Below, in pieces: positions 14-37,680 of a DNA stretch of 39,714 nucleotides (positions are counted from its first letter, which is position 1; every line of letters starts with the position of its first letter). The translations under genes and the position numbers were made by a program. The notes beneath the pieces were generated by a model that had not been told where the DNA came from, ran no database searches, and saw nothing but the letters and a program-made list of their open reading frames with translations. The DNA lies in the NCBI RefSeq assembly GCF_006345805.1, contig NW_021835525.1, forward strand, positions 1-39,714, in the 5' to 3' direction. The DNA comes from Octopus sinensis. Its lineage: Eukaryota.

Positions 14-189
14 GAATGGTTGTATACTGTCAATCTAATGGGAACGTGACAGTAGGGGTTACACCACTGCTGTTTAGCCCTAGGAAGCATCGCTGCCACC
101 TGATGGCTTCGACAAATTTTTCCTGTGTCCTATATATTTACGAAATATATCCCCTACTGTCCCGTTAGATTGACAGTATACAACCATTC
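14..189. repeat. Fold-back element: inverted arms 14-58 and 151-189 around a core related to the 13955-14235 palindrome; may extend beyond the window start
   Basis: GAATGGTTGTATACTGTCAATCTAA...GACAGTAGGGG is the reverse complement of CCCCTACTGTC...TTAGATTGACAGTATACAACCATTC (one mismatch, one 6-nt indel). Directly followed by (TA)n. Confidence 0.85.
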
Positions 190-748
190 TATATATTATA
201 TATATATATATATTATATATATATAATATATATATATATATGTATATATGTATATATATATGTATATATGTAATATATATATATATAGTATATATATATA
301 TTATATATATATTATGTATATATGTATATATATATGTATATATGTATATATATATGTATACGTATATATATATATTTATACGTATTATATATATGTATAC
401 GTATATATATATGTGTGTATACATATATATTATATATGTGTATACATATATATGTATACATATATATATATGTATACATATTTATGTATACATATAATAT
501 GTATACATATATATATGTTTATTATATATGTATACAATATATATGTATACATATATATGTTATATATTATATATATATGTATACATATATATATATGTAT
601 ACTATATATGTATACATATATATGTATATAATATAATATGTATACATATATATATATGATTCATATATAATGTATACATATATATATGTATACAATATAT
701 ATGTATACATATATATGTATACATATATATGTATACATATATATTATG

Positions 749-5324: not shown

Positions 5325-5577
5325 CCCTATTATTTTTGTAGTTGATTTTTGTTTCATTTAATTTATCTGTCTTTAATTGATTTTTACATATCGTGAATTG
5401 TAATGTTCATAAAACGCTGGAATGGTTTGTGTTTTTTTATATATAATTTTTCTGGTTTTGAATTATCTGGCGTTCCAGTTATCTTTCATTATATTATTAT
5501 TTGTTTATTCCCGTCTGGGCTATGAAAGATCTTTGTATATTTTTGTTGTTGGTCGTAATTATTCATACCAGCATGTA

Positions 5578-5667
5578 ATTCCTGACGAAGAATCTAATTT
5601 TTATTTCATGAAGAATTCTTTGTTTATGTGTTTGGAATTAATTAGTCTCCGAAACAATTTGTAGAAT
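5578..5667 (+). ncRNA. Putative type I hammerhead ribozyme motif, Penelope-like style, possibly degenerate
   Basis: ATTC-CTGACGA-AG..CTAATT...AATTAG..CC-GAAAC-AATTT-GTA-GAAT: both catalytic boxes in the correct order, stem I ATTC/GAAT, imperfect stem II, minimal stem III, GUA cleavage triplet. Confidence 0.6.
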
Positions 5668-5674
5668 ATATCGT

Positions 5675-7566: not shown

Positions 7567-7703
7567 TTAAAGTTGATGCTATTGGGATTTAGTGTTCTAT
7601 GATGAGTTAAGACAATAGAATGCATTAAATAAACTAATTTGATTAAATAAGATTATGTCACGTCTCAAGTATGTTTAAGCAAAAATAATGCGTAAGAGAT
7701 AAT

Positions 7704-7790
7704 ACATATACTAAAATTGGAACGATTCAGAGAAGATTAGCATGCCCCTGCGCAAGGATGACATGCAAATTCGCGAAGCGTTTCATATTT
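7704..7790 (+). pseudogene. RNU6: U6 snRNA pseudogene, missing ~17 nt at the 5' end
   Basis: ACATATACTAAAATTGGAACGAT(T)CAGAGAAGATTAGCATG-CCCCTGCGCAAGGATGACATGCAAATTCGCGAAGCGTTTCATATTT has about 5 differences from canonical metazoan U6. The ACAGAGA box is mutated to TCAGAGA and the 5' stem-loop is absent. Confidence 0.95.
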
Positions 7791-7796
7791 CTCAAA

Positions 7797-13908: not shown

Positions 13909-14234
13909 AACAATAATAAATTTCTGAACGAGATATAAACAGTAACTGCTCGACAACGTAAGGGGTATCAGCCATCTGAATGTGGCTAGGGACTGGGCGG
14001 GGTGGTGGGGTGTTACTGATGCTTTTAGCCCCAGGCGATCAACGTCACCAGAAGGACTGACACTATCTCAGTGTCCTTGTTTACTATCTCAGTGTCCTTT
14101 TTTAAACAAACAAGGACACTGAGATAGTGTCAGTCCTTCTGGTGACGTTGATCGCCTGGGGCTAAAAGCATCAGTAACACCCCACCACCCCGCCCAGTCC
14201 CTGGCCACATTCAGATGGCTGATACCCCTTGCGT

Positions 14235-14271
<37 letters not shown>

Positions 14272-15845: not shown

Positions 15846-16094
15846 GGGGGGGGGTAAATGTGAGAGAATAAAAATAGAGCTACTACCAATAACAACAACA
15901 ACAACAACAACAACGATTATCGGGTCATTGCTGATTGTAAGATTGCTGTTATCACATAGCAATTTTATAGATTGCAACCTTGCAATCTCCCTAAATGAAG
16001 AATCGGTAAGTGAGGTGGGTGACCCCTGTTAAGGAGGGACTAAATGGAATACATGTTAACTCTGACCGTCAGCAGCTTTACTTTTTTATTTGCT

Positions 16095-18050
16095 GTCATC
16101 ATCATCATCATCGCCTTCATCATCATCGTAATTGTCCCCAGCATCGTCATTATCATCAACTTCATTGCTATTGGTATCATCGTCAGTGTCATCATCATCA
16201 TCATCATCATCATTTTTGCCATTATCGTCATCGTTCACATCATCATCACCAGCATCATCGCCTTCATCATCATCGTCATTATCATCAGCTTCATTGCTAT
16301 TGGTATCATCGTCAGTGTCATCATCATCATCATCATCATCATTTTTGCCATTATCGTCATCGTTCACATCATCATCACCAGCATCATCGCCTTCATCATC
16401 ATCGTCATTATCATCAGCTTCATTGCTATTGGTATCATCGTCAGTGTCATCATCATCATCATCATCATCATTTTTGCCATTATCGTCATCGTTCACATCA
16501 TCATCACCAGCATCATCGCCTTCATCATCATCGTCATTATCATCAGCTTCATTGCTATTGGTATCATCGTCAGTGTCATCATCATCATCATCATCATCAT
16601 TTTTGCCATTATCGTCATCGTTCAATCATCATCACCAGCATCATCGCCTTCATCATCATCGTCATTATCATCATTTCATTGCTATTGGTATCATCGTCAG
16701 TGTCATCATCATCATCATCATCATCATTTTTGCCATTATCGTCATCGTTCACATCATCATCACCAGCATCATCGCCTTCATCATCATCGTCATTATCATC
16801 AGCTTCATTGCTATTGGTATCATCGTCAGTGTCATCATCATCATCATCATCATCATTTTTGCCATTATCGTCATCGTTCACATCATCATCACCACCGCAT
16901 CATCGCCTTCATCATCATCGTCATTATCATCAGTTTCATTGCTATTGGTATCATCGTCAGTGTCATCACATCATCATCATCATCATCATTTTTGCCATTA
17001 TCGTCATCGTTCACATCATCATCACCAGCATCATCGCCTTCATCATCATCGTCATTATCATCAGCTTCATTGCTATTGTATCATCGTCAGTGTCATCATC
17101 ATCATCATCATCATCATTTTTGCCATTATCGTCATCGTTCACATCATCATCACCAGCATCATCGCCTTCATCATCATCGTCATTATCATCAGTTTCATTG
17201 CTATTGGTATCATCGTCAGTGTCATCATCATCATCATCATCATCATTTTTGCCATTATCGCCATCGTTCACATCATCATCACCAGCATCATCGCCTTCAT
17301 CATCATCGTCATTATCATCAGCTTCATTGCTATTGGTATCATCGTTAGTGTCATCATCATCATCGTCGTCATCATTTTTGCCATTATCGTCATCGTTCAC
17401 ATCATCATCACCAGCATCATCGCCTTCATCATCATCTTCATTATCATCAGCTTCATTGCTATTGGTATCATCGTTAGTGTCATCATCATCATCATCGTCA
17501 TCATTTTTGCCATTATCGTCATCGTTCACATCATCATCACCAGCATCATCGCCTTCATCATCATCGTCATTATCATCAGCTTCATTGCTATTGGTATCAT
17601 CGTTAGTGTCATCATCATCATCATCGTCATCATTTTTGCCATTATCGTCATCGTTCACATCATCATCACCAGCATCATCGCCTTCATCATCATCGTCATT
17701 AGCTTCATTGCTATTGGTATCATCGTTAGTGTCATCATCATCATCATCGTCATCATTTTTGCCATTATCGTCATCGTTCACATCATCATCACCAGCATCA
17801 TCGCCTTCATCATCATCGTCATTATCATCAGCTTCATTGCTATTGGTATCATCGTTAGTGTCATCATCATCATCATCGTCATCATTTTTGCCATTATCGT
17901 CATCGTTCACATCATCATCACCAGCATCATCGCCTTCATCATCATCGTCATTATCATCAGTTTCATTGCTATTGGTATCATCGTCAGTGTCATCGTCATC
18001 ATCGCCATTATCGTCATAGTTCACATCATCATCACCAGCATCATTATTGT
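16095..18050. repeat. 129-bp minisatellite (~15 copies) built from (ATC)n
   Basis: CCTTCATC recurs at 16261 and 16390 (period 129). Markers GCTATTGGTATC and TTTTGCCATT occur in each unit. Confidence 0.95.
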
Positions 18051-25521: not shown

Positions 25522-25923
25522 TTAAGGTCTGTAAACACCCGTAATGAAAGAAATGGGCATTAGTATTTGTATATATGTGTGTATGTGTATTTAGGTATAT
25601 ATATATATTCGAAACATGCATTGAGTCGAACCAGGGACAGCTGATGAAGGGGAATTTTCCTTGTATTGTTTGTCCTGTACTCTGTTTTTTTGTTGTTTAA
25701 AAAAAGTCTGTTTCCTTGTTTGATTTTATGTTTTCGTCTCTCGTGTTTTTTTACGTTTATTTGTGGTGTCCTGTACTCATATATATATATATATATATAT
25801 ATTATATAATATATTTATATATATATATCCATGTATATATACATGTAGATGTTAGTATGTACATATATGTATGTATAATTGCATTATTTTATTTATTTAT
25901 TATATTATATATATATATATAAT

Positions 25924-36340: not shown

Positions 36341-36752
36341 TGAAGTAACAGGGTGACACAAGGTTCTAGAGTTTCACGCATTTGCACTTTTCAGCCCAGT
36401 TACCATTCAAAGGCCTCTGAGTTTATATTGCCGTTGATAAATATCTAAATCTGTTTCCGTTTTGGAATGTCGTAGAACGAACTATGCTGTCAAGTGGGTA
36501 ATTAAAGTTTGCCTGCTATGACATTTAATACGCAAATATATAGACAAACAAAGAGGGGGGAAAAAGAAAAGAATCCATGTGCATGTCACTGCACATATAT
36601 ACACTCACAAACATAAACACACCCAAAAAAAAAAACCCGCGAAATTCACACATGTATATATGAGAGAATATACATGAATTATGCATATTTGTATGCATGT
36701 ATGTATATGTAGTTATGTGTATATATGCACATGCATGTACACATATACATAG

Positions 36753-37425
36753 TCGCAGAAGTGGCTGTGTGGTAAGTAGCCTGTTTACCAACCACATGGT
36801 TCCGGGTTCAGTCCCACTGCGTGGCATCTTGGGCAAGTGTCTTCTACTATACCCCCGGGCCGACCAATGCCTTGTGAGTGGATTTGGTAGATGGAAACTG
36901 AAAGAAGCCTGTCGTATATATGTATATATATATATAATTAATTAATAAGGGTGAGAGAATTAGATACTAATTTAATAGTATATCTATTCTACACCAAGTG
37001 GCCTAGTGCTCCGAGAAACCTGGATTATTATAATATTTTATAATATATTATAATATTTTTACAAAATAAATATAAGAGAGTGGTCACTATATGGCTCACT
37101 CTAGCACCAGTTAATCCAAAAGGTTTCAACCACAAAAATACATGTTTCCCATGAAAGTCAGTACGATTGTTAGCTCACACGGACAGGGCAAATAAAAAAT
37201 AACAAAAATACAGATTATTTTGTGAATTAAATTACATTTAATTCATTAATAGCGAAACAATTGTCCCAAAATAATCTGTATTTTTGTTATTTTTTATTTG
37301 CCCTGTCCGTGTGAGCTAACAATCGTACTGACTTTCATGGGAAACATGTATTTTTGTGGTTGAAACCTTTTGGATTAACTGGTGCTAGAGTGAGCCATAT
37401 AGTGACCACTCTCTTATATTTATTT

Positions 37426-37457
<32 letters not shown>

Positions 37458-37680
37458 CGTGTATGTTTGTGTGTCTGTGTTTGTCCCCCTAGCATTGCTT
37501 GACAACCGATGCTGGTGTCCCTGTCACTTAGCGGTTCGGCAAAAAGAGACTTATAGAATAAGTACTAGGCTTACAAATATAAGTCCCGGGGTCAATTTGC
37601 TCGACTAAAGGCGGTGCTCCAGCATGGCCGCAGTCAAATGACTGAAACAAGTAAAAAAAAAAAAAAAAGTAAAGTAAAAA
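36753..37680 (+). mobile_element. SINE family A copy split at its internal (TA)n by the 160-bp palindrome element
   Basis: 5' half 36753-36935; 3' half resumes at ~37430. Confidence 0.88.
37063..37426. repeat. Long inverted repeat, 160-bp arms, with a 44-nt spacer carrying a half-hammerhead motif
   Basis: 37063-37222 is the reverse complement of 37267-37426 with no mismatch found by eye. Confidence 0.96.

What the first reader, a model, noticed from the sequence alone, without database searches (positions are those of the whole stretch)
36940..37426. Perfect 160-bp palindrome whose fold-back point lies 1 nt from a predicted hammerhead cleavage site
Seen: the arms look identical, so the event is young. 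The spacer holds a 10-bp hairpin (TGAATTAAAT-TAC-ATTTAATTCA), then TTAATAGC-GAAAC-AATT-GTC. This is the 3' half of a minimal hammerhead (helix II, GAAA, palindromic ACAATTGT, GUC at 37263-37265) with the CTGANGA half missing. The right arm starts at 37267, so the left arm is the antisense copy of essentially the predicted 3' cleavage product. The unit sits in a SINE (TA)n tract with a hairpin-containing left extension. Established: PLEs carry such hammerheads and often show inverted terminal copies. Inference: a non-coding, ribozyme-processed, TA-targeted retroelement captured as a head-to-head product of one cleaved and one longer template. Together with the motifs at 14, 5578, 13955 and 25605 this is the best candidate for an under-described system here.
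Basis: partly seen in the sequence, partly recalled or inferred. Interest (0 to 1): 0.75.

Follow-up and report, generated by a model that had tools for sequence, protein, structure and literature searches.

The report
Head-to-head retrozyme with Penelope tail
This palindrome is one insertion of an abundant, protein-less 535-base repeat that carries a hammerhead ribozyme motif; its copies often sit back to back in TA repeats, ending at two different fixed sites, which suggests they are likely copied from one uncut (probably circular) RNA by a borrowed Penelope-type enzyme starting from both sides of the DNA break, while the fold-back next to the predicted cut site is likely chance.

Summary
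The 160-bp palindrome and the half hammerhead are real. They are one truncated, head-to-head insertion of a non-coding ~535-nt tandem repeat (1,647 exact hits to a 22-mer across the cleavage site) with one type I hammerhead per unit: a non-LTR retrozyme. Fuller copies have the predicted CUGANGA core. The real signal is at the outer ends: of 75 head-to-head loci, 66 pair an end at unit position ~290 with one at ~161, and none pairs like with like. An autonomous Penelope-like family in this genome obeys the same rule (12 of 12). The two arms of a locus are 0.57% apart versus 3.6% between loci, and 24 of 68 are not nested, so simple fold-back fails. Best model: twin target-primed reverse transcription of one uncut, probably circular RNA. 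The mobilising partner, cleavage and expression are not shown. The scan has already noted this family and this reading on other DNA of this genome. New member of a known kind, with a testable mechanistic footprint.

The parts
36746..36935 (+). 5' half of the host SINE-like repeat, ending in the (TA)n target
36933..37222 (-). Arm A: antisense copy of unit positions 291 to 2; outer (3') end at fixed site A (~290) in (TA)n
   Evidence: 99.3% to the reference monomer; site A shared by 588 exact end-plus-TA matches in the genome
36933..37062 (-). ~130-nt 'tail' (unit 162-291) present on arm A only; holds two hairpins
   Evidence: analogous to the one-ended PLE tail (PMC8557442 Fig. 2 legend, PMC11167929)
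37063..37222 (-). Left arm of the exact 160-bp palindrome (unit 161 to 2)
37223..37228 (.). Junction bases: three differences from the family that create the 10-bp hairpin 37223-37245; likely templated by fold-back. Alternative reading: 5-nt TTTTG microhomology at 37218-37222 plus three changes
   Evidence: mechanism inferred
37229..37426 (+). Arm B: sense copy of unit 499-535 then 1-161, reading through the cleavage site; outer (3') end at fixed site B (~161) in (TA)n
37250..37278 (+). 3' half of the type I hammerhead: helix II strand TAGC 37250-53, GAAA 37254-57, palindromic helix III/loop 37257-64, GTC 37263-65, helix I 3' strand 37266-78; CUGANGA half truncated away in this copy
37427..37680 (+). 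(TA)n and 3' half of the host SINE-like repeat

Best explanation
The palindrome is one 5'-truncated, head-to-head insertion of a ~535-nt non-coding tandem repeat with a type I hammerhead motif (a non-LTR retrozyme), and it was likely made by a Penelope-like reverse transcriptase/GIY-YIG endonuclease acting in trans, which would cut both strands of a (TA)n tract and prime two cDNAs, one at unit position ~290 and one at ~161, on the same uncut and probably circular RNA. Shown: unit, motif, tandem arrays, TA target, two fixed 3' ends paired one-of-each, near-identical arms, read-through of the cleavage site, scattered 5' ends. Inferred: transcription, self-cleavage (possibly as a dimer through the ACAAUUGU palindrome), ligation to a circle, PLE as the helper, joining of the two cDNA 3' ends by microhomology or short fold-back. 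In this copy arm A stopped about 1-6 nt from the cleavage site, which the family statistics put down to chance.
For: 1,647 exact 22-mer hits spanning the cleavage site, in ~533-bp tandem spacing with minus-then-plus orientation; 48 monomers of 484-542 nt. 75 of 116 sampled loci head-to-head; 66 A/B, 0 A/A, 0 B/B, 9 edge or other; in the sample not selected on ends 22 A/B vs 0 like pairs, P=5e-7. Site B is sharp at ~161. (TA)4 at both outer ends in 67 of 72. Arms of one locus 0.57% apart (332/58,563) vs 3.6% between loci; in 23 arrays of 3 or more units 112 variants are shared by all units, 22 by some, 138 private. 24 of 68 A/B loci, this one included, have neither arm nested in the other; nesting 44 observed vs 48.3 by permutation. 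Same one-tail/one-no-tail rule in an RT + GIY-YIG family of this genome: 12 of 12 loci with a second end among 20 fetched, plus L208 and L206. Anolis PLE protein cleaves and extends both strands, starts RT at two sites flanking the tail and prefers uncut RNA (PMC11167929).
Against: No autonomous element sharing the retrozyme's ends was found among 50 GIY-YIG loci or 15 short-stem hammerhead loci; the PLE families seen have ~37-40-nt tails with no sequence likeness. 41 of 116 loci show only one arm of 30 nt or more. 15 of 75 joints are near-symmetric (4.1 expected, P=5e-5), often at palindromes, as fold-back self-priming predicts. Homogeneous arrays could also come from multimeric transcripts of young arrays or from gene conversion. 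Rfam finds no hammerhead in the window or in a full unit; the compensatory changes in helix I come from only two sister-family copies. Cleavage, circles and expression are untested.
Confidence: 0.62

Rival explanations
1. One reading: head-to-head product of one ribozyme-cleaved linear template and one longer template, so that 5' ends pile up at GUC.
For: In this copy the exact match of arm A stops at unit position 2; one more locus, L254, has an arm stopping at position 1; 8 stops at positions 1-12 vs 4.6 expected, P=0.09.
Against: 0 of 191 arms stop at 1-2 and 3 at 1-6 (2.3 expected) against 237 read-throughs; only 1 genome-wide diagnostic match (capture about 1 in 8, my estimate) against 1,647 exact read-through 22-mers (control 0); the junction here can be read with 5 nt of microhomology, which makes the end uncertain by 5 nt.
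Confidence: 0.08
2. Fold-back self-priming (as proposed for PLE head-to-head repeats on an antisense template, PMC3846280): one strand snaps back and copies itself to make the second arm.
For: 15 of 75 near-symmetric joints, several on palindromes; arms near-identical; short templated fold-backs at joints, this one included.
Against: 24 of 68 loci have sequence unique to each arm, impossible for a single fold-back; nesting no commoner than by permutation; in this locus arm B holds unit 499-535 that arm A lacks, and arm A holds the tail that arm B lacks.
Confidence: 0.15
3. Same twin priming, but on linear multimeric read-through transcripts of young tandem arrays (ribozyme inactive or bypassed), with no RNA circle.
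For: HHR cleavage is not needed for PAc insertion in vitro and uncut RNA is the main substrate (PMC11167929); 22 variants are shared by only some units of an array; L048 has 17 fairly heterogeneous units.
Against: Arrays must be regenerated from truncated copies; loci 2-3% from the family majority carry the same variants in all units of both arms (e.g. L063, 13 of 13); the core stays intact in 105 of 121 motifs.
Confidence: 0.25
4. Assembly or read-chimera artefact, or a DNA-level foldback/MITE-like element.
For: The window is a whole 39.7-kb unplaced contig; the exact junction was not among the joints shown by public contigs.
Against: Outer ends fall on the two family sites, the host repeat continues on both sides, and 75 loci on large contigs show the same build with variable inner joints; variable 5' truncation and tandem read-through are not MITE features (own knowledge).
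Confidence: 0.03

Closest known systems
Metazoan non-LTR retrozymes (Cervera and de la Pena 2020, PMC7229834: term passages and Discussion read; Li, Clavereau and Pollet, bioRxiv 10.64898/2026.07.22.740005: first fifth, term passages and Discussion read, supplements closed)
   Same: Non-coding tandem units, one type I hammerhead per unit, dispersed high copy number, PLEs proposed as helpers, rolling copy of a circle proposed.
   Different: Unit 535 nt vs ~170-400 nt; head-to-head arrays, fixed paired 3' ends, one-ended tail and (TA)n targeting are not mentioned in the passages found for 'invert', 'palindrom', 'head-to-head', 'target site', 'microsatellite'. Expression and circles are shown there, not here.
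Endonuclease-bearing Penelope-like elements (PMC8557442 and PMC3846280: term passages; PMC11167929: first two of four parts)
   Same: Inverted 5'-truncated copy at the 5' end, partial tandems, tail on one end only, two RT start sites, AT-rich/microsatellite targets, palindromic helix III hammerhead.
   Different: No ORF; tail ~130 nt rather than 30-40 nt; whole arrays of a short unit; the antisense self-priming model of PMC3846280 does not fit 24 of 68 loci.
L1 twin priming (PMC2837659: search listing and start of abstract only; mechanism otherwise recalled)
   Same: Both target strands prime cDNA; cDNA ends join by microhomology, giving an inverted-plus-direct insertion.
   Different: In L1 the second primer lands at variable internal sites and segments do not overlap (recalled); here both sites are fixed, 130 nt apart, and both arms cover the same sequence, often for several units.

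Membership tests
Non-LTR retrozyme | Tandem head-to-tail repeats of a short unit | tested here: met
   48 monomers, mostly 529-542 nt; arms up to ~17 units (L048+L049). This window's copy is sub-monomeric.
Non-LTR retrozyme | One type I hammerhead per unit with intact core | tested here: met
   CTGANGA in 105 of 121, GCTA/TAGC in 114 of 121 (the scan needs intact anchors); fold z=-5.3; 5 pairs with double changes, from two sister copies. No Rfam hit.
Non-LTR retrozyme | No protein coding, no LTR/PBS/PPT | tested here: met
   No ORF of 200 codons or more listed within the repeat arrays; no flanking direct LTRs in the locus maps. PBS/PPT not searched separately.
Non-LTR retrozyme | Self-cleavage in vitro | not testable with these tools
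   needs a bench assay
Non-LTR retrozyme | Expressed as linear and circular monomers | tested here: inconclusive
   No run on record as RNA; contigs only
Penelope-like element (autonomous) | ORF with RT and GIY-YIG | tested here: not met
   Absent from the unit; no tblastn match of the 781-aa PLE protein in the window
PLE-mobilised (works like a PLE) | Inverted 5'-truncated copy, one-ended tail, microsatellite target | tested here: met
   same rule in an autonomous family
PLE-mobilised (works like a PLE) | Sequence shared with the pLTR of an autonomous partner | tested here: inconclusive
   None in 50 GIY-YIG loci (30+20 fetched from 147 listed of 5,029 candidates); the search was far from exhaustive
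Minimal hammerhead (short helix II) | Short helix II, weak palindromic helix III | tested here: not met
   Helix III is 2 bp with a palindromic loop, but helix II carries a ~45-nt extension

The most novel reading that the evidence does not exclude
Each insertion is the footprint of two reverse transcriptases of a PLE dimer loaded 130 nt apart on one circular ribozyme RNA, each primed by one strand of the cut target and running laps by strand displacement until the two cDNA ends meet; this one rule would explain retrozyme tandem arrays, PLE inverted repeats, the one-ended tail and the excess of joints where both arms stop at the same circle position.
Probability: 0.33. Interest if true: 0.78.

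Novelty: new member of a known kind. Interest (0 to 1): 0.52.

Why it matters
How retrozymes are mobilised and how Penelope-like elements build their tandem/inverted structures are stated open questions (PMC7229834 Discussion; PMC8557442; bioRxiv 10.64898/2026.07.22.740005 Discussion). This young family offers hundreds of near-unmutated insertion products with two base-precise start sites, a strict one-of-each pairing and arms from one template. That ties a retrozyme to PLE enzymology by footprint rather than co-occurrence, argues against antisense self-priming as the sole route, and names the RNA sites to mutate in the existing in vitro PLE assay. The single locus itself is ordinary within the family.

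Tried and rejected
Rfam scans gave only hairpin-like miRNA noise and no hammerhead. The DNA search returned only 5 candidates, so patterns were used. A first map split at the unit boundary suggested three arms ending exactly at position 1; remapping on a repeated reference showed these were artefacts of the split. BLAST end coordinates of 158-203 for site B were run-on into (TA)n; the true end is ~161. Partner hunt: GIY-YIG family search, 50 loci compared, no shared terminus; L191/L192 and L205/L138 only have the two elements side by side in TA tracts; short-stem hammerhead pattern gave 15 hits, none tied to an intact ORF; tail-motif pattern returned 1,898 hits, those inspected being this family. 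Sequencing runs: no RNA holder listed; in run X6 (RNA status only a guess) a single 565-nt contig covers exactly one unit and closes on itself, which a tandem array in DNA would also give, so it is not counted. Laying contigs on the window did not show the locus junction among the rows displayed. Mild stop excesses at unit 81-100 and 481-500 (P=0.03, 0.015) do not survive 27 bins. Rows dropped before counts: L047, L111 and the second block of L041 (duplicates), L049 (continuation of L048); the window, L002, L003, L005, L078 were left out of the stop statistics because they were found by likeness to the window; L048, L102, L156 (cut by the fetch edge) were left out of the nesting test.

Full report
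Observation. The arms 37063-37222 and 37267-37426 are an exact 160-bp inverted repeat with a 44-nt spacer, and GTC lies at 37263-37265. The insert sits in the (TA)n tract of a SINE-like repeat whose halves continue on both sides. The window is a whole 39,714-base contig of a 2.72-Gb genome; 'octopus' is the label given in earlier scan notes and was not checked here.

The family. A 22-mer spanning the predicted cleavage site has 1,647 exact matches (control 0), mostly at ~533-bp spacing and with minus-strand copies preceding plus-strand copies. From 40 fetched stretches I cut 48 cleavage-to-cleavage monomers (46 of 529-542 nt) and used one real copy (L056, 535 nt; position 1 = first base after GTC) as reference. 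The window maps as arm A, antisense, unit 291 to 2 (36933-37222), then arm B, sense, unit ~499-535 and 1-161 (37229-37426).

The ribozyme. Complete copies read helix I, CTGANGA, GCTA, a ~45-nt bulged stem, TAGC, GAAA, a 2-bp helix III with a palindromic loop, GTC. Of 121 complete motifs 105 have CTGANGA, 11 CCGANGA and 5 other; 114 keep GCTA/TAGC (the scan needs intact anchors). The region folds at z=-5.3 and the monomer at z=-7.2. On 29 aligned copies 98.8% of cells pair and 5 pairs change on both sides, but those changes come from two copies of a sister family, i.e. about one event. Rfam does not detect it. The window's 10-bp hairpin rests on three differences from the family seen in no other locus held, so it is most likely made at the joint; similar short fold-backs or duplications occur at other joints.

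Two samples were used: 37 loci from the first 100 listed 22-mer hits and 79 loci from the first 100 of 588 hits to the site-A end (80 fetched, one duplicate dropped). Among 191 arms, 5' stops are spread over the unit: 0 at positions 1-2 (0.75 expected), 3 at 1-6 (2.3; P=0.39), 8 at 1-12 (4.6; P=0.09), with 237 passes through the site; 189 of 222 read-throughs are letter-exact. A genome-wide pattern built to catch arms starting at positions 1-2 found 1 locus (L254), a control site 0; with a capture rate of about 1 in 8 (my estimate) this leaves room for at most a few percent.

What is regular. 75 of 116 loci are head-to-head. Their outer ends are 3' ends of the hammerhead strand and fall on two sites: A at ~290 and B at ~161, in (TA)n on both sides in 67 of 72. 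66 of 75 pair A with B, none pairs A/A or B/B, 9 are cut by the fetch edge or end elsewhere (two of these, L067 and L048/L049, are A/B on inspection). Sample 2 was chosen on an A end and cannot show B/B; sample 1 was not, and gives 22 A/B to 0 like pairs (P=5e-7). 41 loci show one arm only at the 30-nt limit; some carry shorter second arms (e.g. L094, L137).

One template. Substitution divergence is 0.57% between opposite arms of a locus, 1.2% within an arm and 3.6% between loci. In 23 arrays of three or more units, 112 variants are in all units, 22 in some, 138 in one. Neither arm contains the other in 24 of 68 A/B loci, including this one, and nesting (44) is no commoner than by permutation (48.3), so single fold-back copying cannot be the general route. 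Against my model, or refining it: 15 of 75 joints have both arms ending within 12 nt of the same unit position (4.1 expected), often at palindromes. Joints overlap by 2 nt or more in 35 of 75, 1 nt in 15, are blunt in 14 and carry inserted bases in 11 (BLAST-based, rough).

The helper. The genome holds RT + GIY-YIG elements with intact 781-aa ORFs 99% alike. They also end in (TA)n, at two sites ~40 nt apart. Of 20 tailed ends fetched (of 134), 12 have an inverted partner in the stretch and all 12 partners lack the tail; L208 and L206 (another family) agree. So the pairing rule is a PLE property in this genome. But these families share no sequence with the retrozyme and my scan found no hammerhead in them; the actual helper is unidentified.

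Mechanism. Inferred: tandem copies are transcribed, self-cleave, and are ligated to circles as shown for other retrozymes (PMC7229834); a PLE protein cuts both strands of (TA)n and extends both, as the Anolis protein does in vitro, starting at the two sites that bound the tail (PMC11167929); both cDNAs run through the ligated or uncut site, sometimes for several laps, and are joined at their 3' ends. Confidence 0.62 for the whole; higher (about 0.9) for 'retrozyme with PLE footprint', lower for circle versus multimer.

Comparison and novelty. Retrozymes, their proposed PLE link, inverted PLE copies and the one-ended tail are all in print (see Closest known systems for what I read of each). I did not find head-to-head retrozymes, strict end pairing or an octopus retrozyme or in the term passages; subscription papers and the preprint's supplements were out of reach and may bear on this. 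Earlier notes of this scan describe the same or sister families and the same model on other DNA of this genome; they are unchecked AI notes, my reading was recorded before I saw them, and they are not counted as support.

Noticed in passing
window 13955-14236: A second, unrelated head-to-head unit in the (TA)n tract of another copy of the same SINE-like repeat: 95-bp exact arms 13988-14082/14108-14202, a one-sided extension and a short duplication at the joint; same build, different family.
   Followed up: partly
window 5560-5670: CTGACGA at 5582 with a GAAAC about 70 nt downstream; possible hammerhead of another family, no likeness to this one.
   Followed up: no
window 14-200 and 25605-25780: Further TA-flanked repeats; 14-100 shares a motif with the 13955 unit, and 14-40 has an inverted match near 150-180; 25641 has a CTGATGA without a GAAA in the next 120 nt.
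   Followed up: no
window 7692-7792: U6 snRNA copy above the Rfam cut-off (89 bits) with an altered 5' hairpin, probably a pseudogene.
   Followed up: no
window 15967-18000: 129-bp-period (CAT)n-rich tandem repeat.
   Followed up: no
L189:1136-5958: Young PLE family with a 479-codon open frame of no Pfam family upstream of the 781-aa RT/GIY-YIG ORF, a long 3' region with internal repeats, a unit that starts where its own 3' end stops, and no hammerhead found.
   Followed up: partly
L203:6920-7610; L249, L251 around 1485-1570: Sister retrozyme-like families about 70% alike, with homologous A and B ends (L203, head-to-head) and compensatory helix I changes.
   Followed up: partly
L002:1690-1745: Joint with a 9-nt unit repeated about four times, as if by repeated template slippage.
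   Followed up: no
L138/L205 and L191/L192: Retrozyme inserted in the TA tract at or near the 3' end of a PLE copy; shared target rather than shared element.
   Followed up: partly
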